From a virus (taxonomy: Duplodnaviria; Heunggongvirae; Uroviricota; Caudoviricetes): a DNA stretch of 64,000 nt. Below, one piece after another: positions 25,386 to 64,000 of the stretch. Position numbers and translations under genes: made by a program. The first letter of the stretch is position 1. Each line of letters begins with the position of its first letter. The DNA lies in the IMG/VR virus record IMGVR_UViG_3300032053_000007. One strand, 5' to 3'. Under the pieces are notes generated by a model. That model had not been told where the DNA came from and did not search any database. It saw only the letters and a list, made by a program, of their open reading frames with translations.

Positions 25386-25420
25386 TTATCCTATATTGTC
25401 CATGCAATATACGACCACGG

Positions 25421-54255: not shown

Positions 54256-54435
54256 ATGATGGACAAAGAGTTTAAGGTCAAAATAACCCCTAAACAAGCT
54301 CGATACGTCATAAAGCTCTTGAAAGATGCCGTAAAGACGAAAAGACGCAAAAAACAGCAAAACATCGACAGCATTGAAATACTCGTCACGGACATCGACA
54401 TTCAGGTATCAACCGAGAACACACGATTTCTCTAA
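54256..54435 (+). CDS. small basic protein (59 aa), possible DNA binder
   Basis: below cutoff; KVKITPKQARYVIKLLKD strand-helix pattern (weak). Confidence 0.4.
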   Translation: MMDKEFKVKITPKQARYVIKLLKDAVKTKRRKKQQNIDSIEILVTDIDIQVSTENTRFL

Positions 54436-54450
54436 CCTTCTCTTTTTTTG
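54436..54450 (+). terminator. oligo-T terminator
   Basis: ccttctctttttttg. Confidence 0.5.
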
Positions 54451-54481
54451 TGCATGGACGTTCTACCACAATCTTTATATA
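54449..54481 (+). promoter_or_regulatory. GAGCATGG-box/TATA promoter cassette (variant box)
   Basis: tGTGCATGGacgTTCT..TTTATATA; offset 24; about 105-nt leader. Confidence 0.55.
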
Positions 54482-54608
54482 GCTGTTTGATTATTGTATT
54501 ACTCGTATGAGCACGGGAACAAGGTTTCCAAACTACGTCCTTAGCTGACGAGTGATGGACGCTTATTGGAGAATCGTCCGTGTTCCGCGCTAATCTAAGT
54601 GGTCTAAA

Positions 54609-54746
54609 ATGATAACACTAAAAACCGTGATTAAGAAAGTAAAAGAGAACGCTGGCATAATCATGGCATTTGCCCCGATAGCCTTTTTCGTAGTTGTAAT
54701 AGCTCTAATACTTTCTGGAATACTCAAAGTTCACATTGAATTTTGA
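54609..54746 (+). CDS. small TM protein (45 aa)
   Basis: hydrophobic core; TGA opens cassette 54744. Confidence 0.45.
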   Translation: MITLKTVIKKVKENAGIIMAFAPIAFFVVVIALILSGILKVHIEF

Positions 54747-54776
54747 GCATGGACGTTCTTAGGAAACCTTTATATA
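54744..54776 (+). promoter_or_regulatory. GAGCATGG-box/TATA promoter cassette
   Basis: tGAGCATGGacgTTCT..TTTATATA; offset 24. Confidence 0.65.
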
Positions 54777-54809
54777 GCTCGGTGTTGTTGTTATTATCAA
54801 GTGAACAAG

Positions 54810-55028
54810 ATGGTCAAGCAAAAAATAGGATTCTTTAAGTGGCTCTACACAAGAACCATCGAAGTCATACGTGACCCTCTAACCCAAAGTATAGGGGCAA
54901 TTCTGGGTGGAATTTTCATTTTCGCTTTTTCTGCTACTTTTGGTGCGCTATTCTCGCCTCTTCTATTTTTGGGTGTCCCTGTTGGAATATTGGTACTACT
55001 CTACGGAGTCTATAAAGTCGAACACTAG
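54810..55028 (+). CDS. small 2-TM membrane protein
   Basis: trimmed to ATG 54810. Confidence 0.55.
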   Translation: MVKQKIGFFKWLYTRTIEVIRDPLTQSIGAILGGIFIFAFSATFGALFSPLLFLGVPVGILVLLYGVYKVEH

Positions 55029-55031
55029 ATT

Positions 55032-55064
55032 CGAGCATGGTCTTTCTACCACAACCTTTATATA
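55032..55064 (+). promoter_or_regulatory. GAGCATGG-box/TATA promoter cassette
   Basis: cGAGCATGGtctTTCT..TTTATATA; offset 24; no CDS downstream. Confidence 0.6.
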
Positions 55065-55089
55065 CCCGTTTGACATACTACTCTATCAA

Positions 55090-55147
55090 GGGCGAAGGGA
55101 TATTGTTCCATTTTTTCACCGTCCTTTCTCGCGCTTTCCCTTCGCCC
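55090..55147 (+). other. 11-bp perfect hairpin at 5-prime end of a noncoding transcript
   Basis: gggcgaaggga (55090) / tcccttcgccc (55137), followed by C/T-rich tract to about 55330. Confidence 0.4.
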
Positions 55148-55335
55148 GTTCTACTCATTCCTTCTAACCTCTCTAACCCTCTACAAACTTAGACGATTTC
55201 ACTAACACTTTTTGTTAAAGACCTCAGAACCCCCGACCCAGAGAGCCTTTACACTTTTTGATTTCACCACGTCAACCGAAACTGACCCAAGTTCTGCCCA
55301 AGCCGTCTTGAGCCTCTCTCACGAAACCCAGATTT

Positions 55336-55351
55336 TTAATCAACTGATTAA
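55336..55351. promoter_or_regulatory. TTAATCA-NN-TGATTAA palindrome
   Basis: ttaatcaactgattaa. Confidence 0.55.
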
Positions 55352-55672
55352 CGAATCGTAGCTCGTAACGAGGCTGTGCACCCTTTACCCCGACCTCTAA
55401 CCATATAACACAAATTGTTAAGCAAATTCCCGAACCCCAGAGAACCCACGTCCGACCCCTAACCCAGACCCTCTAACGACCTCTAATCACTAACCCCCCC
55501 AAGAGAGCCATATACCCCCAAAAGTGGAGTCCATGCTTAAAAGAAATGCTCGATAAAAGATACTGATGACCTTTACATACGTAAAGGAAAGGGTTGTCAT
55601 ACGTAAAGGGTCTATGGAGTGGAATGTTGGCATACGACAACGGCGTGATTGACATAGTGCTGTAGCTCTATT

Positions 55673-55688
55673 TTAAACAGGTGATTAA
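55673..55688. promoter_or_regulatory. palindrome (one mismatch)
   Basis: ttaaacaggtgattaa. Confidence 0.5.
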
Positions 55689-55813
55689 CGACCCCATTAT
55701 AAAGAAGTCCCCCCCCTCTAGCTCCCCTGAATGCCAAAACAAGCCTAGAAAAAAGACGTTTTGGCAAACGGTGACTTTATTATCCGAAAGGCTCGCGGAA
55801 CTGTGGAGAATTT

Positions 55814-55829
55814 TTAATCAGGTGATTAA
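55814..55829. promoter_or_regulatory. TTAATCA-NN-TGATTAA palindrome
   Basis: ttaatcaggtgattaa. Confidence 0.55.
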
Positions 55830-56192
55830 GCAGGGCGAACCGACAGGTAGAAGGGACGGCGTGAACTCTCTGACCAGAAAATAATTGGAACCAAAAAAAC
55901 GCCTATGTGCGCTTATGTGATATTCTCAGTTGCATTCTATGGACAATTTCCTGTTAACCGAGGCGTTACCCCAAAAGTTGCACTTTTTGTTACACTAGAA
56001 GTTGTGCTAGACCAAAACGTTTATATACCCCCTATTTAAGCGTATCGCCGATAGCCTTATATAGTAGCTATTTAAACCTATCGGTTGCTTATATATGTGC
56101 AAACTTAGCAAAATTCGAACCATAAAGTACAACTCTCTATTATCACGTCCTTCGAACCATATACCGCAACTCTTATATAGATGCCATACTTA

Positions 56193-56225
56193 CTTATAAA
56201 CGTTTGCCCAGAACGACCATGCTCG
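56193..56225 (-). promoter_or_regulatory. GAGCATGG-box/TATA promoter cassette (minus strand)
   Basis: reverse complement reads cGAGCATGGtcgTTCT..TTTATAAG; offset 24; no convincing CDS downstream. Confidence 0.5.
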
Positions 56226-56346
56226 ATTTAGAGGCTGATTCAGGGCGGAAACAACTAACGGAGCACACTTACAGATTCGAACTCGCGCCGATGACTAGCT
56301 CTGAGACTGATTAACTAAAACGAACGTCATCGAACGGTGAATTCAT

Positions 56347-56526
56347 TAGGACTGATGACAATTTTGACGTTCTAACATTACCCCGAACTCCACGATTTAG
56401 CCTTATTCGACTAAACGGGGCGTACTCGCTCAATATCGTTGAGCAAATATAAAGGGAATTGAGCGTATTGCTCCGAACGACCCGCTCACAGGTTGATTTT
56501 AGAAAACGGGCATTATCCACAGTCCT
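56347..56526 (+). repeat. conserved 180-nt noncoding element, copy 2
   Basis: same landmarks and spacing as 42341-42520; hairpin cgctcaat/attgagcg shows a compensatory T-A to C-G change. Confidence 0.5.
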
Positions 56527-56792
56527 ACCCGCCATTGCTGGCGCGAACGGGCTTCGAACTTGGTTGTACTTTGAGTTACATTGAATATACATCATGCGTT
56601 ACTATGTAATATACGCTTAACGCGAACAACTCCAACTCTCTCAAACATACGTTCTCAGCGCACTATATATACGTTTGCTTTTTCCTGTACGACACATCTA
56701 CAAGTCAATGGTCGAACTGTTGGTTTAAGCTACACTTTAATGGAAACGTTTATAAGAGAGGGTGCGAACGTTATTCTAAGGACGTGAAACAC

Positions 56793-57287
56793 TTGAACGA
56801 TAAGGACGAATTGACACGACTTGAAAACTTAGCGCAAAAACTAGGTTTTACCGTGATATATAATTTAACCCTTAGCTGGAATCATTCGAAGGTTTCCTTT
56901 TATCCATGTCGAAGAATCCTTATCGGAACTAAGAACTATTCACCAAATTCAAATATCGGTTATGGAACCATACCTGATAAGGTTAAAGCGTTAATTCTGA
57001 ATCACGAGCTAGGGCATATTGTCGTATATGAAACGCTTTACCCTAACATGGATTTAGCTGATTTTTGTCTCTCAAATGATTCAAAATTCTTGGTACAACA
57101 AGAGATGTACGCATGGAAAACCGCAATAAATGAATCGCTCGATGATAATTCTGACCCTCTAGTGTTGGAATTGATACAAGAATCGATAAACCAATACATT
57201 TATTGTGAGTATATCGGAACATGCACAATAGAATCTCAGCAAGAACTACAGCAAAAAATAATTACTAAGTTTACACGTACAAAATAG
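56793..57287 (+). CDS. small HExxH metallopeptidase-like protein
   Basis: LNHELGHIVVYE; TTG 56793 six nt after AAGGACGTG (track used GTG 56784). Confidence 0.55.
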   Translation: MNDKDELTRLENLAQKLGFTVIYNLTLSWNHSKVSFYPCRRILIGTKNYSPNSNIGYGTIPDKVKALILNHELGHIVVYETLYPNMDLADFCLSNDSKFLVQQEMYAWKTAINESLDDNSDPLVLELIQESINQYIYCEYIGTCTIESQQELQQKIITKFTRTK

Positions 57288-57340
57288 TACACAAAGGTTT
57301 ATTAAGGACGGTGCTATTATACTCTTAAGGACGTGGAAAG

Positions 57341-57634
57341 ATGGTCGAAATAAAAATCTATGTCGTAACAACGGAAAACCCAGATAAGACAAAACTAGAT
57401 TCTGTGAAAGTTCAACTATGCGGTGCATTCGGCGGTTTAACCGTCATTAATAACTGTGAGGGTCTATGGCTAGATAACGGAAAATTATACGCGGACAACG
57501 TACAGATTTGGCTCATAGAAAGTTCAACTGTGGTTTCTCCTGAACAAATAATGAAATATGGTGAAGACTTAAAGGCAATATGCAAACAAAAATCTCAAAT
57601 GATAAGCATAAACGGACACCCATATTTTGTTTGA
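57341..57634 (+). CDS. hypothetical protein
   Basis: own TATA, tatact initiator region, AAGGACGTG SD. Confidence 0.6.
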   Translation: MVEIKIYVVTTENPDKTKLDSVKVQLCGAFGGLTVINNCEGLWLDNGKLYADNVQIWLIESSTVVSPEQIMKYGEDLKAICKQKSQMISINGHPYFV

Positions 57635-57645
57635 AACAATTTCCC

Positions 57646-57655
57646 TCTTTTTTTG
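57646..57655 (+). terminator. oligo-T terminator
   Basis: ctctttttttg after stop 57634. Confidence 0.45.
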
Positions 57656-57708
57656 ATATAAACCTTTATATAGAACGCTGACATTATACTATTGAAGGAC
57701 GTGTGAAC

Positions 57709-58302
57709 GTGGAACACTTACAACTTAGCGCAATATGCGAACACTTAACACAACTAGAGGACACGGACGCGGAAGGACTCTTCGATTTAAGCCTAGAATC
57801 ACAAGTGCAGTTCTTAGAATTCTTTAAACACTATAAGGACTGTGAAAAAGGCAAGGCTAAAGGAAAGGGCTTTGGAAATTGCTGGAAATTGAATTCTAAG
57901 CGTAATCCTAACGTATTTACCCATTTAGAGGCACAATTTAAGAGATTAGTGGACGACTTTAACCTAGAGTTGAACCATGAGGTACGCATAAAAGTTAAGG
58001 ATAGGTGCAACCGCTGGCACATTTTCAAATTAGACTTCTTTGACCCTAAGACCCAAATTGACATAGAAATAAGCCCAAATTGGCACAAGAATTACCTTTT
58101 AGTCGTAAGACGTGACGCATTGCGTAGAAGGCTCTTAAAACGGGTCGGGATTCGAAGTCTAACGGTTCCTGTAGTATATAAGGGCAAACACGGACACATA
58201 GATTATATAAGAGCGAAACGAATAATAAAGATAATCAAAAGTGCAACCGTCAGCCCTAACTCACTAGACTACTATACAACTAATAAAGAGGTGAATGAAT
58301 AA
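57709..58302 (+). CDS. endonuclease-fold protein (DUF559/Vsr-like, weak)
   Basis: KLDFFDPKTQIDIEISPNWH resembles DF..(h)IE.DG..H core; GTG 57709 after AAGGACGTG. Confidence 0.4.
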   Translation: MEHLQLSAICEHLTQLEDTDAEGLFDLSLESQVQFLEFFKHYKDCEKGKAKGKGFGNCWKLNSKRNPNVFTHLEAQFKRLVDDFNLELNHEVRIKVKDRCNRWHIFKLDFFDPKTQIDIEISPNWHKNYLLVVRRDALRRRLLKRVGIRSLTVPVVYKGKHGHIDYIRAKRIIKIIKSATVSPNSLDYYTTNKEVNE

Positions 58303-58535
58303 TGGAATATTTCGGAAATTGTCCCAAATGCAGACACCACACGATAGTTAAATCCGTGAAGGCTATAAAAAGTGCAACTGCGAGACTACCACAGCGTACA
58401 AGCGAATGTATCAACTGCGGAACAACTGCAAGAATAACCATAATCGGCGAAATAGTTAAACTTGCAGGGATAACTAACGTGGTCAACCCAGAGTTTGCAA
58501 CGGTAAACAGACTTGTGGTGCGCCTGTGGAGTTAA
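58302..58535 (+). CDS. zinc-ribbon protein
   Basis: CPKCRHH..CINCGT; TAATG overlap. Confidence 0.55.
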   Translation: MEYFGNCPKCRHHTIVKSVKAIKSATARLPQRTSECINCGTTARITIIGEIVKLAGITNVVNPEFATVNRLVVRLWS

Positions 58536-58537
58536 AC

Positions 58538-58577
58538 CACCGTGACATGCACGGTGCAACTTTCCCTTCTTTTTTTA
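58538..58577 (+). terminator. hairpin plus T-run terminator
   Basis: caccgtg-acatg-cacggtg ..cttcttttttt. Confidence 0.55.
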
Positions 58578-58642
58578 GTACAACTTTCTATTAACTGAAA
58601 ACTTAGCGAATTTTTAATTTTCTTCCCTGTTCGAATATTGTC

Positions 58643-58762
58643 TTCGATTCACCACAATGACGTGCTATTGAACCATACTCTCCATTGTGATGAATTTGTG
58701 TCCCACTTCGAGGTATGGTCTTTTCCCATGCTTTTCTTCGAATGTTGACTTCGATTCATCAC
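58643..58762. repeat. TTCGATTCAYCAC iteron-like repeats with hairpin
   Basis: ttcgattcaccac 58643, gtgatgaat 58687 (inverted), ttcgattcatcac 58750; related set at 59592-59780. Confidence 0.5.
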
Positions 58763-58830
58763 GAATTTTGGAAACATTGTTGGCATGGATGGAACGGTAC
58801 GGCGGAGCCGTGCGGCGAACTTAGCATTTT

Positions 58831-58846
58831 TTAATCAACTGATTAA
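58831..58846. promoter_or_regulatory. TTAATCA-NN-TGATTAA palindrome
   Basis: ttaatcaactgattaa, 20 nt upstream of TATA 58867. Confidence 0.55.
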
Positions 58847-58909
58847 CTCAGGACTGAGTAGGAATGTTTATAAGACTCGATGCTATTATACTCTTAAGGA
58901 CGTGGAATA

Positions 58910-59170
58910 ATGGCAAGAATCTTTAAAGTGAATGAAACCACAGAAATACTCTGTGAATTTGTGAGCACAAGAAGCGGTTTTAGACATGATGCAAGGCTGT
59001 TCAAAAATGGCAATGAATACGAAAAGGCTAAAGTATGCTACGTAAACAGAACATGGGAGAAATTTGACTTCGAAACCGTCATACATAAACTGCTAGAAAA
59101 GACGGACGCTTTGACCGAAACAGAAAAAGAGCAATTCAGAACCGAATTAAACAACAAATACGGCTATTAA
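58910..59170 (+). CDS. hypothetical protein
   Basis: TATA 58867, AAGGACGTG SD. Confidence 0.6.
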   Translation: MARIFKVNETTEILCEFVSTRSGFRHDARLFKNGNEYEKAKVCYVNRTWEKFDFETVIHKLLEKTDALTETEKEQFRTELNNKYGY

Positions 59171-59206
59171 CCCCCCTACCCCCTTTTTGTTTTTTTGGTG
59201 ATAATC

Positions 59207-59308
59207 ATGGAACAAAAAAGACGAATTCGGACACAACCGAAATTAAAAGGAAATCTCGGCAAACTGTTTAATAAGCGATTTTTTGAACTGCTCGAACAGA
59301 ACCGATAA
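59207..59308 (+). CDS. basic mini-protein (33 aa)
   Basis: SD TGGTGATAATC-ATG; flanked by T-run terminators. Confidence 0.4.
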   Translation: MEQKRRIRTQPKLKGNLGKLFNKRFFELLEQNR

Positions 59309-59445
59309 AACTCCCTCTTTTTTTGACTTGCAAACTTAGCGGAAAAACAAATTTTAACTTAATATATACCTATGTGCGTTACACCCCAGACAGTTACCCC
59401 CAGAAGTTCAACTTTCGGTTGACCACAACCTTTATATAGGTCGCC

Positions 59446-59497
59446 ATACCGAAACGTTTATATACTACCCTATACCGAAACCCTTATATACTACCTA
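59446..59497 (+). repeat. two 26-bp tandem repeats each carrying a TATA box
   Basis: ataccgaaacSYttatatactaccYt x2. Confidence 0.55.
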
Positions 59498-59591
59498 TTT
59501 GACTTCATAGTTCCTGTTCTAACCATACAACACCGTCACTTATAAACCTTCCTATTTAACTGTTCAACAATAATACAGTTAGTACATTGTG

Positions 59592-59780
59592 TTCGATTCA
59601 TCACAACGATGAGAGCGAAAATTTCGTTCGAGAAAATATACATGAAAACACCATAGTACGAGTAACCACTTCGAAAACACACATATGGGGCAATAAAAAG
59701 ACCATTGTGGTGAATCGTAGCCAATTTCGAAGCATGGGAAAAGCATGGTAAATTCTCGAATCGTGACTTCGATTCACCAC
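59592..59780. repeat. TTCGATTCAYCAC iteron-like repeats (second set)
   Basis: 59592 (+), 59707 (inverted), 59768 (+); central ttcgaagcatgggaaaagcatgg resembles reverse complement of 58716-58752. Confidence 0.5.
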
Positions 59781-60024
59781 GCATAGGAACAAAAGTTCAC
59801 CGTGAGTTCAACTGTGGGTGACATTCAATTCAAGTGATGCGTGTCCATGTAATATACGCTTAACGCGAGGCTCTGGTTATGAACGTGGGCACGGGACTAT
59901 TTAAACGTTTGCTTTTAACTGTTTAACGTGACTACACATGACCATATAAACTGTATATTTGACCTACACTTTAAAGCCAACCTTTAAATACTACGTTCGA
60001 CACGTTACCTAATGGTGAACAAGG

Positions 60025-60498
60025 ATGCCAATAAAAACCGTGGAATTTGTCTTATATCTCTCGGACGTTGTAAACTTAGGCTTTTCAGAATTGACGATTC
60101 AAAAAATTAAGCAGAGATTGATAGACCACTTTTCATTTGGTACGAATTTACCAGAGAATTACGTTGTAATTTATCCTCATATTGTAGCGTTTGAGATGCA
60201 CAACGAGGATAAAATTGTTCGCAAATTTAACTATACAGTTCTGCATGAATTGATACACGGATTACTTGAAGAGAGTGAACTTAATACAGAAGAGATGTGC
60301 CACGCTTGGAGTATGATACTAACCGATGACCGTGAATCAAATGTAAGCGGTCAAGGACACCACTATTATCAAATGTTAAAAGGACGAACAGAAATCGTTG
60401 TAAACGAAGAACCCAAATTCGAGGCGGAAAAGCTAAACGCGGCGCGGAATTTGTCCAGAATGCGATTAGTGAAACACCATGAGCTAACAGGACTTTAA
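60025..60498 (+). CDS. small HExxH metallopeptidase-like protein
   Basis: VLHELIHGLLEE. Confidence 0.55.
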   Translation: MPIKTVEFVLYLSDVVNLGFSELTIQKIKQRLIDHFSFGTNLPENYVVIYPHIVAFEMHNEDKIVRKFNYTVLHELIHGLLEESELNTEEMCHAWSMILTDDRESNVSGQGHHYYQMLKGRTEIVVNEEPKFEAEKLNAARNLSRMRLVKHHELTGL

Positions 60499-60581
60499 AC
60501 CGCGAAGTATATAAACCTTCTGGTTTTACCCAAACCTTTATTAATGACCGTGCTATATTATATCTCAAGGATGTTGAAAAA

Positions 60582-60884
60582 ATGGCAAACGTATTTAGTG
60601 TTAAACACTACGTAAAAATTGCCGAGCTAATAGGCAAGGCAAAAGACTTAGACGAATTTTACAGATTTTTCGTAAAGTTCGCACAAGCCGAAAACCCAAA
60701 ATTCTCTATTGAGAAGTTCTATAAAGCGGTTCAGAAAAGCCACCAATTCGGCGGAATCGGGTGCGGTGCGCCCGAATTAGCCGAGAAACCCCAAAAAGAG
60801 TGGGAATTTCCTCAAGAGGCTATAGAATCGGACGGTCAACCTGACGAAGCCCAAGAATGGCACGATTTCGACCCTGACGCTTAA
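60582..60884 (+). CDS. hypothetical protein
   Basis: own TATA (tttattaa); track ORF. Confidence 0.6.
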   Translation: MANVFSVKHYVKIAELIGKAKDLDEFYRFFVKFAQAENPKFSIEKFYKAVQKSHQFGGIGCGAPELAEKPQKEWEFPQEAIESDGQPDEAQEWHDFDPDA

Positions 60885-60901
60885 AGCGTCCCTCTTTTTT
60901 T
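60876..60901 (+). terminator. hairpin plus T-run terminator
   Basis: gacgc-ttaaa-gcgtc cctcttttttt (overlaps stop). Confidence 0.55.
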
Positions 60902-60992
60902 ATCCATAACATGTAACATAACATGTTTTCCATGCTTTGACCATGCCTGACATGACATAAAGGTTTATATAAGTCGGTTGATATAGTAGTAC

Positions 60993-61166
60993 ATGGCGAG
61001 AAAAATGAACACACACAACAACACACAAGTAAAAACTCATGTCGGGACTTTTCAAGTGAAATACCACCGTGACGGCGGAAAAGTCGGCAGTACGAGCGTG
61101 ATTATCCGAAAGAAGCTCGTTTATGAACCCTATGACATTTTAGCCTATAAATTCGGAGCAAAATAA
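60993..61166 (+). CDS. hypothetical small protein (57 aa), leaderless
   Basis: ATG 22 nt after TATA 60964-60971. Confidence 0.45.
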   Translation: MARKMNTHNNTQVKTHVGTFQVKYHRDGGKVGSTSVIIRKKLVYEPYDILAYKFGAK

Positions 61167-61168
61167 AA

Positions 61169-61291
61169 ATGCCAAAAACTTGTTTAGGAAATTTGACTCG
61201 TGACTGTTCTGGGACATGTCCAGATTATCAGGAATGCCTTAAAAAATACATGGACATGGAAATAAGAACGTCAGAACATAACAGAGATTAA
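61169..61291 (+). CDS. Cys-rich mini-protein (40 aa)
   Basis: C..C..C..C; ATG 2 nt after previous stop. Confidence 0.4.
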   Translation: MPKTCLGNLTRDCSGTCPDYQECLKKYMDMEIRTSEHNRD

Positions 61292-61522
61292 TGCAACCGA
61301 GGCGGTTCACGGGAAGTTTAACTTTAAGTTGGTTTCTAATCATGGTATCCGTGTCCATGTAATATCCCGTTTTTTCTCGCGCTGAGGTTGTCGCCCTCAA
61401 TAGTAACGTGTGCATCGAGGTATATAAACGTTTGCTTTCAAGTGTAGAACAGGACTACAGTTTAGCTACACAACAACGTTTATAAGTCACGGTGATATAA
61501 TATAGTTAAGGACGTGTGTGAC

Positions 61523-62035
61523 ATGGACGCATTAAAAAAAGCTCTTGCGGTTAAGCGTAAAATGATTCACCCAGAACGACAAAATTTTTGTCTAAACAAA
61601 CTTAGTGAATTCTCGAAACGCTTAATATTAGGAATTCAAGACACACCTTATATTTTGCTTCCTGACCAAAAACAAACCTATTCTATCGATTTGAACCTTA
61701 AGCAATGCCGAAAAGCTAAACGGGACGGTTTACAGAACGTAATTCGTGCATCATGGTCAAATCTGCCTTTTAGAAATAAAAGCGAATTTGATATTATTTA
61801 TGCTGATAATTTCGGCGATAGAAAAGACATTAACGAAATAGCGCACGAAGTAAATCGACTGAAAACCAAAAAGCTCATCGTTTTAGGTGCGGCTAGAGCA
61901 TTCAGGAAGCCAGCGAAGCGTAAATGGAAATATCTGCTCAAAACGAGGTTCCCTAAGCTAAAGCTCCAAGAATTACGGAAGGACGGCGGTTATTGTTCCA
62001 CGGTGCAATGGACAGCAATACTGTATAAGCGTTGA
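61523..62035 (+). CDS. hypothetical protein
   Basis: trimmed to ATG 61523 after AAGGACGTG; NLPFRNKSEFDIIYAD only weakly methyltransferase-like. Confidence 0.55.
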   Translation: MDALKKALAVKRKMIHPERQNFCLNKLSEFSKRLILGIQDTPYILLPDQKQTYSIDLNLKQCRKAKRDGLQNVIRASWSNLPFRNKSEFDIIYADNFGDRKDINEIAHEVNRLKTKKLIVLGAARAFRKPAKRKWKYLLKTRFPKLKLQELRKDGGYCSTVQWTAILYKR

Positions 62036-62091
62036 ACACTTAAATAGGAACGTTTATATAGCTCGCCGCATACGTTACTATTGGTGAAAAA

Positions 62092-62223
62092 ATGACCAAC
62101 AACAAAAAGCCCAAAAAGTTGAGCACGGAAGACTTTAACGCGATATTTGACGCGATAAGGAACACGGAAAAACACCCAAAAATAAAATTCTCATGTCGAA
62201 CGTTCAGAGGAGTCAGGGACTAA
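62092..62223 (+). CDS. hypothetical mini-protein (43 aa)
   Basis: TATA 62053, SD TGGTGA, T-run after stop. Confidence 0.45.
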   Translation: MTNNKKPKKLSTEDFNAIFDAIRNTEKHPKIKFSCRTFRGVRD

Positions 62224-62310
62224 AACCCTTTTTCTTTTGTAGTTCTGTTGTACACTTGAATCGAAAGGTATATAAGGAACGGTGTACACATACTATTGAG
62301 GGAAAAACTC

Positions 62311-62538
62311 ATGGCAAGGACAATAAGGGTTAACGTGGTTGTGTGCTACAGAAATAGGCTTACAAGAATGTTTAAAAACGTTGAACTTGACATAACACAC
62401 ATAAACGAACTTAATAACCGTAACATGTCAAGAGCGTTCGAAGAACAATACCCTAAACTCGTGGCAAAAATCCCAACGTGGACGGACAACCGAGGGTTTA
62501 CTTTTAGGGCTAACTTCGAATGTGAACCGCTCTACTAA
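62311..62538 (+). CDS. hypothetical protein
   Basis: trimmed to ATG 62311; TATA 62266; T-run after stop. Confidence 0.55.
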   Translation: MARTIRVNVVVCYRNRLTRMFKNVELDITHINELNNRNMSRAFEEQYPKLVAKIPTWTDNRGFTFRANFECEPLY

Positions 62539-62758
62539 AACCCCAATTTTTTGTGTATTTCTGTTCTACAGTTAAAAGCGAAGGTTTAAATAGGTCGGCG
62601 ATATACTATATTTGTCGAGCGCGGGACTCGGCGGCGCGAGCTATCGGATATTACATGGGCACGGACGGCAAGAATCCACCGAAACGTTTATAAGCAACCG
62701 CCTCACCAGAACCTTTATAAGTCTCTGTGCTATACTATTCTATAAGGACTGTGAAAAC

Positions 62759-63052
62759 ATGATAGACATGAATAAGGTCAGTATGGCGTTAACTCTAACA
62801 AACGCGAAGTTAAACGCTCTCTCAACAGAAAAATACAACACACTAAAAGCCTCTGTTGACGTACCACTTGAACCGCTGGAAATAGTGAAATATCAGAATC
62901 TAAAAGCTATCGCCCAAATAGAACAGAAAATTTCACTCGAAGTTGCACTCTGGATATACACGGCAATTGAGCATTGGGCAAAAACGACACTAGGAGAAAA
63001 AATTCTGATAACTCAAATGATAGCTGGCTGGGCTGGGATTCTTCGCAAATAA
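62759..63052 (+). CDS. hypothetical protein
   Basis: track ORF 62612.. trimmed: its 5-prime part covers two TATA boxes and a GC-rich hairpin. Confidence 0.55.
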   Translation: MIDMNKVSMALTLTNAKLNALSTEKYNTLKASVDVPLEPLEIVKYQNLKAIAQIEQKISLEVALWIYTAIEHWAKTTLGEKILITQMIAGWAGILRK

Positions 63053-63141
63053 ACCCTTTCTTTTCTGTATTATTGTTCTACAGTCAAAAGCAAACGTTTA
63101 AATACCTCTCTGAACATATACTATTATTGGTGAAAAGCGCA

Positions 63142-63288
63142 ATGAGAAACCGAAAAAGAGAATTTAGTTATGAAGAGCAACCTAGACAAATAGCTCTAGC
63201 ATTTGAACGTGAGCTATTGATAATCTGCGCTCAAGTAGAACAAGCCGAAAAAATCGAAGCACAAAAAAGACGAGGTTATCAAGTATGA
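63142..63288 (+). CDS. hypothetical mini-protein (48 aa)
   Basis: track ORF 62974.. trimmed to ATG 63142 after TATA 63097 and SD TGGTGA. Confidence 0.45.
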   Translation: MRNRKREFSYEEQPRQIALAFERELLIICAQVEQAEKIEAQKRRGYQV

Positions 63289-63377
63289 GCGAATTACTAA
63301 TAGCTCTCTTAGGCATCTTTTCAGCGTGGTTTATCTCTGACCAACTGATACAGAACGTAGGCAAAAAGAAAAAGTAA
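63285..63377 (+). CDS. TM mini-protein (30 aa)
   Basis: ATGA overlap; LLIALLGIFSAWFI. Confidence 0.4.
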   Translation: MSELLIALLGIFSAWFISDQLIQNVGKKKK

Positions 63378-63393
63378 GAGGGCTTCAATACAG

Positions 63394-63412
63394 CACGGGC
63401 TAATTGCCCGTG
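63394..63412 (+). terminator. terminator-like hairpin
   Basis: cacgggc-taatt-gcccgtg. Confidence 0.4.
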
Positions 63413-63573
63413 TTCCTAGTGATTAGCCTCTAGGTAGAATATAGCTAACTGATGAACCTTATAGGCTATGGTTTATAGGGTCAAGGTTGTTGCACTACAC
63501 TTGCAAGCTAGAGGCTATCACACAATAATACTTTTAGTACAACTAATTAGTTACACTTTTAGTTATACCAAAT

Positions 63574-63751
63574 CCTTATATACTAGCCTGTTTCACTTGT
63601 GCACAACACTACTATATAAACCTTTCACAACCCTTATATACTAGAGCCTCACTCACGAGCACAGCACTACTATATAAGGCTTACGCAACCCTTATATACT
63701 ACACCCTACCCCCTACCCCTATTTAAACTTATCGCAACGCTTATATACTAG
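63574..63751. repeat. 58-bp tandem repeats carrying inverted pairs of TATA boxes
   Basis: ccttatatactag at 63574, 63632, 63690 (and 63739); ctactatataa at 63610, 63668. Confidence 0.6.
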
Positions 63752-64000
63752 ACCCGCCCCTCTACCCCCTTATAAAGCTATCGGACAATTCTCAGTTGCA
63801 CTTTCGGTTGCACCCACAAGAGCACTAACAATTATCACAAAAAGTACAACTTTCAGTTACATCAACAAGTCCCCCGCCAGTTCCACCCACAGGCGAATCA
63901 GAGGTAATATAGTCCCCCCCTAAACACAGGAATTCGATTTTGGTGGATGGGACTAAGCTGGGTAAATTGCCCTATGTTTCAACTGGGTCATGATGTTTCA

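What the first reader, a model, noticed from the sequence alone, without database searches (positions are those of the whole stretch)
56603..56792. A duplicated ~190-bp upstream module with tandem TATA boxes precedes the right-arm genes (two of them HExxH genes)
Three upstream regions share the same order of elements: 56603-56792, 59841-60024 and 61351-61522. The order is:
- (gtgtc)catgtaatat(a/c)c, with the 15-mer gtgtccatgtaatat identical at 59841 and 61351;
- after about 60 nt, a first TATA fused to aaacgtttgcttt;
- ctacac;
- the proximal aacgtttataag promoter.

An inverted copy of the 15-mer lies at 62648.

The module precedes the HExxH genes 56793 and 60025 and the gene at 61523. The distal TATA would give either a ~70-nt upstream transcript or a long regulated leader.
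Basis: seen in the sequence. Interest (0 to 1): 0.5.

Follow-up and report, generated by a model that had tools for sequence, protein, structure and literature searches.

The report
Back-to-back archaeal promoter cassettes with small RNA
The repeated module is real, but its two "TATA boxes" face away from each other: one drives the gene and the other most likely drives a short leftward non-coding transcript carrying a conserved 15-base box, a regulatory cassette also found in relatives of this uncultivated archaeal virus-like element.

Summary
All the listed elements are at the stated coordinates. M1-M2 and M2-M3 similarity far exceeds chance even with the promoter cores masked; M1-M3 does not.

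The interpretation needs correcting. The "distal TATA fused to aaacgtttgcttt" is a BRE/TATA promoter on the minus strand. A promoter matrix trained on the left part of the window scores it +12 to +24 on the minus strand and -12 to -19 on the plus strand. Each module is therefore a divergent promoter pair, not tandem promoters.

The leftward promoter points at a composite element:
- a small GC hairpin;
- the box ATATTACATGGRCAC;
- 16 nt of spacer, then two GTTSMAC heptamers;
- often a T-run.

A fourth copy (62554-62698, plus strand) has the same box exactly 19 nt upstream of a further BRE/TATA promoter.

About 38 such units occur in diverged metagenomic relatives, with invariant internal spacing. 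They have no coding signature. One hairpin class shows covarying stems.

My best reading is a bidirectional cassette whose leftward arm makes a short non-coding RNA, with the box as a shared recognition site. A purely DNA-level operator remains a serious rival. No Rfam family matches. This is a new variant of a known kind and of moderate interest.

The parts
56563..56581 (-). M1 heptamer pair (ATGTAAC-tcaaa-GTACAAC), starting exactly 16 nt after the box
   Evidence: the same 16-nt phase in 17/17 type-H units
56598..56612 (-). M1 box ATATTACATAGTAAC, a degenerate copy of ATATTACATGGRCAC
   Evidence: nhmmer hit 56561-56624, E 6e-11
56614..56624 (-). M1 mini-hairpin CGC-GTTAA-GCG, abutting the box
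   Evidence: invariant across M1/M2-type units; it reads CAC-GTTAA-GTG in the distant relative L072
56664..56675 (-).
   Evidence: matrix score 15.2 on the minus strand vs -18.6 on the plus strand
56685..56702 (-). M1 class-B upstream element of the leftward promoter (TGTAGATGTGTCGTACAG, inverted-repeat type TGTAG-N-CTACA)
56718..56756 (+). M1 rightward class-B promoter: upstream element TGTTG...CTACAC (56718-56735) and BRE/TATA AACGTTTATAAG (56745-56756)
   Evidence: (score 19.2)
56784..57287 (+). HExxH gene 1 (start GTG 56784 or TTG 56793), preceded by the leader motif AAGGACGTG
59791..59824 (-). M2 heptamers ATGTCAC (59818-59824), GTTGAAC (59806-59812) and GGTGAAC (59795-59801), then TTTT (59791-59794)
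59841..59855 (-). M2 box ATATTACATGGACAC
   Evidence: nhmmer 59797-59867, E 1e-15
59857..59867 (-). M2 mini-hairpin CGC-GTTAA-GCG
59898..59936 (-). M2 leftward class-B promoter: BRE/TATA AACGTTTAAATA (59898-59909) and upstream element (59919-59936); predicted TSS near 59875, giving an RNA of about 85 nt to the T-run
   Evidence: score 11.9 vs -13.8
59952..59990 (+). M2 rightward class-B promoter (TGTAT...CTACAC, then AACCTTTAAATA), ahead of HExxH gene 2 (ATG 60025)
   Evidence: (score 21.7)
61316..61334 (-). M3 heptamer pair AACCAAC-ttaaa-GTTAAAC
61351..61365 (-). M3 box ATATTACATGGACAC
   Evidence: nhmmer 61308-61371, E 9e-12
61383..61399 (-). M3 hairpin at the 5' end of the predicted transcript: TGAGG-GCGACAA-CCTCA
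   Evidence: predicted fold; covarying stems across 7 distinct sequences
61421..61459 (-). M3 leftward class-B promoter: BRE/TATA AACGTTTATATA (61421-61432) and palindromic upstream element TGTAGTCCTGTTCTACAC (61442-61459); predicted TSS near 61398
   Evidence: (score 23.7 vs -11.7)
61466..61486 (+). M3 rightward promoter (CTACAC, then AACGTTTATAAG), ahead of the gene at ATG 61523; it lacks 27 nt present in M1 and M2
62554..62592 (+). Fourth unit (U4): class-B promoter on the plus strand (TGTATTTCTGTTCTACAG ... AAGGTTTAAATA)
   Evidence: (score 16.1)
62616..62662 (+).
   Evidence: nhmmer 62636-62698, E 3e-14
62683..62721 (+). Two further BRE/TATA promoters (62683-62694 and 62710-62721). The BRE of the first starts exactly 19 nt after the box. 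They lie ahead of the gene at ATG 62759.
   Evidence: same phase in 11/11 type-P units

Best explanation
The window comes from an uncultivated archaeal virus-like element. The source contig is 151.8 kb, almost all genes lie on the plus strand, and promoters are of the BRE/TATA type.

Each 'module' is a cassette of two class-B BRE/TATA promoters placed back to back, 58-85 bp apart. Each promoter has a TGTAG-N7-CTACA inverted-repeat upstream element.

- The rightward promoter transcribes the gene (HExxH gene 1, HExxH gene 2, or the 61523 gene).
I infer that it transcribes a short non-coding RNA of about 85-160 nt.

The predicted RNA contains, in order:
1. a GC-rich hairpin with a GNRA-like loop (GCGACAA, GCGA or GNNAA), starting within a few nucleotides of the predicted start site;
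2. the invariant box AUAUUACAUGGRCACG;
3. a 16-nt spacer ending in a TGARTTCA-like octamer;
4. two or three GTTSMAC heptamers at a 12-nt period;
5. in most copies, a T-run where archaeal RNA polymerase could terminate.

The box is a shared recognition site for one partner, most simply a virus-encoded protein. The same box, in the same phase, sits exactly 19 nt upstream of the BRE of further promoters in other copies (U4 in the window).

The cassette would therefore couple a class-B regulon: it fires a divergent, non-coding, probably regulatory or insulating transcript towards the upstream cassette, and it presents the box to the common factor.

Shown:
- the orientation of the distal promoter;
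- the family of units and its fixed internal geometry;
- the lack of coding signal;
- the covarying hairpin.

Inferred:
- that the leftward promoter is active;
- the transcript ends;
- that the RNA rather than the DNA is the active form of the box;
- the identity of the partner.
For: **1. Orientation.**
- A position matrix was built from 21 plus-strand promoters of the left 52 kb, each lying upstream of an ATG ORF of at least 60 aa.
- It scores the distal sites 15.2, 11.9 and 23.7 on the minus strand, against -18.6, -13.8 and -11.7 on the plus strand. The 99.9th percentile of all positions is 1.6.
- The distal sites are 73-82% complementary over 40-52 nt to the plus-strand promoters that precede the genes at 62311 and 63143 and the U4 unit promoter at 62581. 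The match includes the upstream element and the initially transcribed region (I2-I8).

**2. A unit family.**
- A profile of the box region finds exactly four copies in 64 kb, with E values from 1e-10 to 1e-15. All lie within 56.5-62.7 kb.
- About 38 distinct units were found in relatives with 50-99% protein identity.
- Of the first 35, 28 have a BRE/TATA 40-61 nt upstream, always in the sense orientation.

**3. Fixed geometry.**
- Box to BRE is 19 nt in 11/11 units.
- Box to first heptamer is 16 nt in 17/17 units.
- Convergent box pairs lie exactly 80 nt apart in five relatives.

**4. RNA-level signal.**
- The stems flanking the invariant GCGACAA differ between units (TGAGG/CCTCA, CTTGAG/CTCAAG, TTGCG/CGCGA, CTTGCG/CGCAAG, CGTG/CACG) yet stay complementary.
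- 83% of cells are paired, against 61% in shuffles. Four of six pairs show changes on both sides. The covariation score is 0.62 against 0.18, reached by 0 of 500 shuffles. Slid registers give 19-50% paired.
- Three G-U pairs are tolerated only in the predicted sense strand.

**5. Not coding.**
- In-frame stops appear after 7-12 codons in several units, and 6-7 units have ATA in place of ATG.
- Conservation peaks at third-codon positions, the opposite of a coding pattern.

**6. Promoter classes are regional.**
- The class-A upstream element GAGCATGGNNNTTCT occurs about 30 times on the plus strand up to 55 kb. Right of 56.3 kb there is only one 2-mismatch minus-strand match, at 58431.
- Class-B elements occur only between 56.6 and 63.1 kb.
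Against: - There is no expression data. Transcription start sites and 3' ends are predicted only from TATA spacing and T-runs.
- The T-runs are short: T4 in M1 and M2. M3 has none before 61241-61246.
- Single-sequence folding of the predicted window RNAs is no better than shuffled sequence, with z from -1.45 to +1.96. Any structure is therefore limited to small hairpins.
- The covariation test rests on 7 short sequences in a register I chose by eye.
- Several features look like DNA-level protein binding sites:
  - the invariant phasing of the box to a downstream BRE/TATA;
  - the near-palindromic heptamers (GTT-S-AAC) and octamer (TGAATTCA);
  - the exactly symmetric 81-bp convergent arrangement;
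  - at least one unit (L072 5495) that has the box right after a terminator-like T9 run with no promoter of its own.
- The leftward unit is dispensable for the gene. In L086/L093 the HExxH-2 allele has only the rightward class-B promoter.
Confidence: 0.5

Rival explanations
1. The composite element is a purely DNA-level operator array. On this view the box, the TGARTTCA octamer and the GTTSMAC heptamers are binding sites for one or more viral transcription factors. These factors control the adjacent promoters by activating or repressing the next BRE/TATA, or by roadblock or looping on the divergent pair. The leftward transcript would be a by-product with no function of its own.
For: - Spacing from the box to the downstream BRE is invariant (11/11), as is spacing to the heptamers (17/17).
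- The heptamers and the octamer are near-palindromes.
- Heptamer pairs also sit directly upstream of plus-strand TATA boxes elsewhere, at 55976, 59390 and 63549.
- The symmetric 81-bp convergent arrangement recurs in 5 relatives.
- Some units lack their own upstream promoter.
- Whole-RNA folding energy is poor.
Against: - The covarying stems around GCGACAA, with G-U pairs only in the sense strand, are not expected for a double-stranded DNA site.
- The box always has the same orientation relative to an upstream promoter (28/35 units).
- The hairpins start at the predicted start of the transcript.
Confidence: 0.3
2. The modules are mobile regulatory cassettes. On this view they are promoter-bearing repeats whose main consequence is homologous recombination that shuffles small gene cassettes in a hyperplastic region, like PeSLs of T4-type phages. 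Their similarity would be maintained by exchange rather than by a specific function of the 15-mer.
For: - Gene order in this region is reshuffled among relatives, and the units sit ahead of different genes in different genomes: homologues of g56784, g60025, g61523, g60582 and g57341.
- Identity to L085 and L086 changes abruptly in promoter-bearing intergenic DNA, at about 56249, 58850-58863 and 59583.
- In L080, short islands at the modules and promoters are among the segments still alignable at DNA level, while HExxH gene 1, g57703 and g61523 give no HSP or have no homologue.
Against: - The breakpoints I could place do not fall inside the box or hairpin. One lies inside the HExxH-2 gene at about 60404. 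The L002 insertion is flanked by a 165-nt repeat of gene 58910.
- Recombination alone does not explain the invariant internal spacing or the covarying stems.
- This reading is compatible with either functional reading rather than exclusive of them.
Confidence: 0.12
3. Both TATA boxes face right, and the distal one gives a ~70-nt upstream transcript or a long regulated leader for the HExxH genes.
For: TBP binds TATA boxes nearly symmetrically, and single-TATA bidirectional promoters are documented in Pyrococcus (PMC6640164). Some rightward initiation from the distal box therefore cannot be excluded.
Against: - Plus-strand matrix scores at the distal sites are -12 to -19, against +12 to +24 on the minus strand.
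- The BRE-like GCAAACG and the class-B upstream element lie on the right-hand side of the distal box.
Confidence: 0.04
4. The leftward units encode small proteins that start at the ATG inside the box (M-D/G-T-...).
For: - Most boxes contain ATG.
- The U5 subfamily keeps a frame reading SSVAPRVELL, with two synonymous differences between L002 and L095.
Against: - Predicted peptide lengths range from 0 to about 45 aa. There are stops after 7 codons in M2 and in L092 3777.
- ATA replaces ATG in 6-7 units, including M1.
- Conservation is highest at third-codon positions.
- Longer minus-strand ORFs carry in-frame stops in relatives.
Confidence: 0.04

Closest known systems
PeSL (promoter-early stem-loop) mobile regulatory cassettes of T4-type phages (PMC2839356, PMC4122927)
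   Same: - Short composite promoter-plus-stem-loop repeats lie between small genes of unknown function in a hyperplastic, reshuffled region of a large virus genome.
- The repeat is better conserved than the flanking genes.
   Different: - PeSLs are bacterial sigma-70 early promoters fused to a terminator stem-loop, co-directional with the genes.
- Here the promoters are archaeal BRE/TATA, arranged back to back, with an extra invariant 15-nt box and heptamer repeats.
- A role in recombination is not shown here.
Archaeal bidirectional promoters (Pyrococcus furiosus dRNA-seq, PMC6640164)
   Same: Divergent, often non-coding transcription arises upstream of archaeal genes whose upstream neighbour is head-to-tail.
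   Different: - In P. furiosus one shared TATA is flanked by two BREs, with start sites 49 bp apart, and the antisense product is thought to be largely noise.
- Here there are two complete promoters 58-85 bp apart, each with its own upstream element.
- The divergent transcribed region is itself conserved and carries a covarying hairpin.
Small antisense or divergent RNAs of phage regulatory regions (lambda oop, P22 sar; from my own knowledge, not checked here)
   Same: A short promoter-equipped non-coding RNA is transcribed against the direction of the neighbouring genes. In M3 it would overlap the 3' end of the upstream gene 61169-61291.
   Different: - Those RNAs are single-copy and act by antisense pairing to one defined mRNA.
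- Here there are 3-5 paralogous units per genome sharing an invariant box, with no demonstrated target.

Membership tests
Archaeal BRE/TATA core promoter (the distal site, read on the minus strand) | A purine-rich BRE immediately 5' of an 8-bp TATA box; the side on which the BRE lies sets the direction of transcription | tested here: met
   GCAAACG-TTTATATA reads on the minus strand in M1-M3. Matrix scores are 15.2, 11.9 and 23.7 on the minus strand against negative values on the plus strand.
Archaeal BRE/TATA core promoter (the distal site, read on the minus strand) | Transcription actually initiates about 23-27 nt downstream of the TATA box | not testable with these tools
   No transcriptome or in vitro data are available. 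Start sites near 56641, 59875 and 61398 are predictions.
Single-TATA bidirectional promoter (P. furiosus type) | One TATA element flanked by BREs on both sides, with divergent start sites about 49 bp apart | tested here: not met
   There are two separate TATA boxes 58-85 bp apart, each with a BRE on one side only. The definition comes from PMC6640164.
PeSL-type mobile regulatory cassette | A composite promoter/stem-loop repeat flanking variable ORFs in a hyperplastic region | tested here: met
   Repeated promoter-plus-hairpin units lie between reshuffled small genes.
PeSL-type mobile regulatory cassette | Indel and replacement junctions between related genomes coincide with the repeats | tested here: inconclusive
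   Some identity breaks fall in promoter-bearing intergenic DNA (56249, 58850-58863). Others fall inside a gene (60404) or at a gene-internal repeat, as with the L002 insertion.
Structured non-coding RNA | Base pairs maintained by compensatory changes | tested here: met
   For the GCGACAA hairpin, 4 of 6 pairs have double changes and 0/500 shuffles reach the observed score. The alignment is small (7 sequences) and in a hand-chosen register.
Structured non-coding RNA | Overall fold more stable than shuffled sequence | tested here: not met
   z-scores are -1.2, +1.2, -1.45 and +1.96 for the four window units. Only L002 U5 (-2.9) and L007 (-3.0) stand out.
Any described RNA family (Rfam 15) | A covariance-model match at gathering score or at E<=1 | tested here: not met
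   No hit at gathering score in the whole window. At E<=1 in 54400-64000 there is only one unrelated hit, E 0.38, at 57777.
CRISPR mini-array or solitary repeat unit | A 24-37 nt repeat in tandem with spacers, or identity to a host CRISPR repeat | tested here: not met
   There is no repeat-spacer-repeat structure around the boxes. A host repeat could not be compared because no host genome was found.
Protein-coding small ORF | An open frame conserved in relatives, with excess variation at third-codon positions | tested here: not met
   There are stops and ATA variants, and conservation peaks at third positions.

The most novel reading that the evidence does not exclude
The units could be a new family of virus-encoded small RNAs. 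Each genome would carry 3-5 paralogues, each with its own promoter, a 5' GNRA-type hairpin and an invariant 16-nt box.

The box resembles the conserved leader motif of this region's mRNAs: ATATTAC-AAGGACGTGG in mRNA leaders against ATATTAC-ATGGACACGG in the box.

Such RNAs could act as decoys or sponges for a factor that normally binds class-B mRNA leaders. That would be a Csr/Rsm-like titration circuit, or an anti-host RNA, in an archaeal virus.
Probability: 0.15. Interest if true: 0.7.

Novelty: new variant of a known kind. Interest (0 to 1): 0.42.

Why it matters
Very little is known about how large archaeal viruses organise transcription. This region shows three things:
- two sharply separated promoter classes, each with its own upstream element;
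- complete promoters placed back to back;
- a conserved transcribed box reused in fixed phase, both downstream of one promoter and upstream of another.

If the leftward units are real small RNAs, they would be one of the few conserved ncRNA families defined in an archaeal virus lineage. They would also give a handle (the 15-mer) for finding the cognate regulator.

In practical terms, the finding corrects the strand assignment of a promoter. It also warns that TATA-like boxes in archaeal DNA must be oriented by their BRE.

Tried and rejected
- **Rfam and tRNA scans.** Rfam at gathering score and at E<=1 and a tRNA/tmRNA scan found nothing relevant.
- **Reference phage records.** BLAST of the region and of two large proteins gave no match.
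- **IMG/VR scan for the 16-mer.** All 44 hits lie in unrelated phage sequence with no BRE/TATA context and are chance matches.
- **GTDB genome scan with the promoter-plus-box pattern.** It gave 13 single chance hits in bacterial MAGs. No host or provirus was found.
- **TIGR-Tas arrays.** These came up in a literature search. The 'TATA' match was to the protein name TaTasR, and nothing here resembles the dual-spacer 36-nt units.
- **Small-protein coding.** Rejected.
- **Minus-strand ORFs 56311-56595, 59536-59784 and 61239-61415.** For 56311-56595, homologous stretches carry in-frame stops. The other two have no homologue conserved beyond the 96-100% relatives, and 61239-61415 starts upstream of the predicted TSS.
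- **Bacterial sigma-70 promoters.** There are fewer than in shuffled sequence, 12 against 18.6.
- **HExxH protein families.** No Pfam, PHROG or PDB sequence match explains them. They are not detectable paralogues.
- **The conserved element left of M1 as a structured RNA.** The consensus fold is weak (-8 kcal/mol) with almost no covariation.
- **A trans target for the box.** The only candidate in the window is one 2-mismatch complement at 25396-25410, which is within chance expectation.

Full report
**What the window is**

GC content is about 38%, and nearly all ORFs of useful length lie on the plus strand. Most are preceded by AAnnTTTAWAWR, a BRE plus TATA box, 30-60 nt upstream of the start codon. 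Bacterial sigma-70 consensus sites are fewer than in shuffled sequence.

The exact source contig is a 151,756-bp metagenome assembly (ENA ERZ27247916). The window is interior to it, so the 'right arm' is not a genome end. A ribonucleotide reductase gene and a dCMP deaminase gene follow to the right.

There is no match in reference phage records. The only virus-like protein signal is a weak hit to a terminase large subunit. I therefore call it an uncultivated archaeal virus-like element.

**Checking the observation**

The exact 15-mer occurs twice. A 1-mismatch inverted copy lies at 62648, and M1 carries a 3-mismatch copy.

An exact 15-mer repeat alone would not be remarkable in 64 kb, so I tested the modules as wholes. 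Local-alignment z-scores against Markov controls are 16 (M1-M2), 14 (M2-M3) and 5.8 (M1-M3). With the BRE/TATA cores masked they are 15.5, 9.3 and 1.2.

The similarity therefore goes well beyond generic promoter motifs for M1-M2 and M2-M3. M1 and M3 are related mainly through M2. M2's proximal promoter is AACCTTTAAATA, not AACGTTTATAAG. Relative to M1 and M2, M3 lacks 27 nt between the two promoters.

**The distal 'TATA' faces left**

Read on the plus strand, the site is TATAAACGTTTGCTTT. Its reverse complement, AAAGCAAACGTTTATA, is the BRE/TATA form seen ahead of this element's genes.

The repeat finder shows the distal sites are 73-82% complementary over 40-52 nt to the plus-strand promoters that precede the genes at 62311 and 63143 and the U4 unit promoter at 62581. 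The match includes the upstream element and the initially transcribed region (I2-I8).

I trained a position matrix only on 21 plus-strand promoters from the left 52 kb. It scores the three distal sites as follows:

| Module | Minus strand | Plus strand |
|---|---|---|
| M1 | 15.2 | -18.6 |
| M2 | 11.9 | -13.8 |
| M3 | 23.7 | -11.7 |

The 99.9th percentile of all positions is 1.6. The side on which the BRE lies sets promoter direction in archaea, which is established knowledge. Each module is therefore a divergent pair of complete promoters, with TATA boxes 58-85 bp apart, and not a tandem pair.

**Two promoter classes**

- The class-A upstream element GAGCATGGNNNTTCT precedes about 30 plus-strand promoters between 961 and 55047. 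Right of 56.3 kb there is only one 2-mismatch minus-strand match, at 58431.
- The class-B element is an inverted repeat of the form TGTAG-N7-CTACA, about 8 nt upstream of the BRE. It occurs only between 56.6 and 63.1 kb.

**What the leftward promoter points at**

In transcript orientation, each leftward arm reads:
1. promoter;
2. 42-55 nt that include a small GC-rich hairpin;
3. ATATTACATGGRCAC;
4. 16 nt;
5. two or three GTTSMAC heptamers at a 12-nt period;
6. then often a T-run.

The 'inverted copy' at 62648 is a fourth unit on the plus strand. It has a class-B promoter at 62581, a hairpin at 62616-62630 and the box at 62648-62662. Exactly 19 nt after the box comes the BRE of another promoter (12-mer at 62683), followed by a third promoter at 62710 and the gene at 62759. 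A profile of the box region finds exactly these four copies in the window, with E values from 1e-10 to 1e-15, and no others.

**Relatives**

I collected contigs ranging from 99% nucleotide identity down to 37-55% protein identity. They came from exact-protein look-ups, three homologue searches and one metagenome pattern scan. They contain about 38 distinct units.

- Of the first 35, 28 have a BRE/TATA 40-61 nt upstream in the sense orientation.
- After the box, 11/11 'type P' units have a BRE exactly 19 nt away.
- 17/17 'type H' units have the first heptamer exactly 16 nt away.
- In five relatives, two boxes face each other exactly 80 nt apart around one heptamer pair. The window's M3 retains only a decayed partner.

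Gene order around the units is reshuffled among relatives, and the units precede different genes in different genomes. In L086/L093 the HExxH-2 allele has only the rightward promoter, so the leftward arm is an optional, portable part.

**Coding or not**

- Peptides read from the ATG inside the box would vary from 0 to about 45 aa.
- Several units stop after 7-12 codons, and 6-7 units have ATA instead of ATG.
- Per-position information is highest at what would be third-codon positions.
- The longer minus-strand ORF 56311-56595 carries in-frame stops in relatives.

I regard the units as non-coding.

**RNA or DNA**

Evidence for RNA:
- Hairpins sit at the predicted 5' end of the transcript.
- In the GCGACAA class the stems differ between units but stay complementary. 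83% of cells are paired against 61% in shuffles. Four of six pairs show double changes. The covariation score is 0.62 against 0.18, reached by 0 of 500 shuffles. Slid registers give 19-50% paired.
- The three G-U pairs would be A-C mismatches on the other strand.
- The mini-hairpin CGC-GTTAA-GCG next to the box reads CAC-GTTAA-GTG in a distant relative.

Evidence for DNA:
- The box is phased invariantly to a downstream BRE.
- The heptamers and the octamer are near-palindromic.
- The convergent arrangement is symmetric.
- Some units have no promoter of their own.
- Whole-RNA folding energies are unremarkable.

I weight the small-RNA reading at about 0.5 and the DNA-only operator reading at about 0.3. 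They are not mutually exclusive.

**Comparison with known systems**

No Rfam family matches.

The nearest described analogue in architecture and genomic setting is the PeSL promoter/stem-loop cassette of T4-type phages (PMC2839356, PMC4122927). Those are bacterial, co-directional and implicated in recombination. Here the breakpoint evidence is mixed.

Archaeal bidirectional promoters are known, but they share one TATA box and give start sites 49 bp apart (PMC6640164). That criterion is not met here.

The finding is best filed as a new variant of promoter-bearing regulatory cassettes, with a possibly new small-RNA family. It is of moderate interest.

Noticed in passing
window 56275-56560; also L095 2262-2560 and 6102-6385; L092 629-905 and 5211-5495; L093 5680-5975 and 9661-9945: A ~290-nt conserved non-coding element ('X') lies upstream of the HExxH genes, with two paralogous copies in each of three relatives. 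It has stops in all six frames and no codon periodicity. It holds many invariant blocks, including repeated YCGAAC motifs and an invariant AGGACTG...CAGTCCT inverted repeat 170 nt apart. The consensus RNA fold is weak. No Rfam family matches.
   Followed up: partly
window 59424-59502 and 63568-63783: There are true tandem arrays of BRE/TATA-like units (CGAAACNTTTATATACTACC). Three copies lie at a 26-nt period, and about four lie at 49-58-nt periods with inverted TATA partners. Both arrays are flanked by GTTRCAC heptamer pairs (59390, 63549, 63794). They could be promoter arrays, an origin-like region or a protein-binding array.
   Followed up: partly
window, about 26 sites (e.g. 5097, 20979, 25370, 33389, 41730, 44897, 52306, 52371, 55336, 58831): The 16-bp near-palindrome TTAATCAGTTGATTAA gives 44 strand-matches with up to 2 mismatches, against 0.19 expected. 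It usually lies about 10-30 nt upstream of the class-A promoter element. It is probably an operator or a terminator-like boundary element.
   Followed up: partly
window 961-55047 versus 56600-63100: There is a sharp switch of promoter class at about 56.2 kb. The class-A upstream element GAGCATGGNNNTTCT lies to the left and the class-B element TGTAG-N7-CTACA to the right. This suggests two separately regulated (temporal?) regulons.
   Followed up: partly
window 56195-56224 (minus strand) and 59541-59579 (minus strand): Two further leftward-facing promoters are present. One is class A at about 56200 (matrix score 27.6). The other is class B at about 59546 (score 14.8) and reads antisense through the 59424-59502 TATA array towards a heptamer pair. 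Neither has a convincing ORF downstream.
   Followed up: no
window 56778-56786, 57327-57335, 57695-57703, 58896-58904, 61508-61516: Genes of the class-B region share the leader motif AAGGACGTG(G) 5-7 nt before the start codon. This is a Shine-Dalgarno-like sequence with a conserved central mismatch to the canonical GGAGGTG. The 15-mer box (ATGGACACGG) and the 5' ends of several leftward units (AGGGACGGTGG) resemble it.
   Followed up: no
L002 3946-5839 compared with window 58894-59058: Near-identical strains (L002-L004) carry a 1.9-kb insertion flanked by a 165-nt repeat of the 5' part of gene 58910. The insertion brings a fifth leftward unit (box at L002 4505-4519) and a 94-aa gene. The 160-aa minus-strand gene called there spans the unit's promoter and is probably spurious.
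   Followed up: partly
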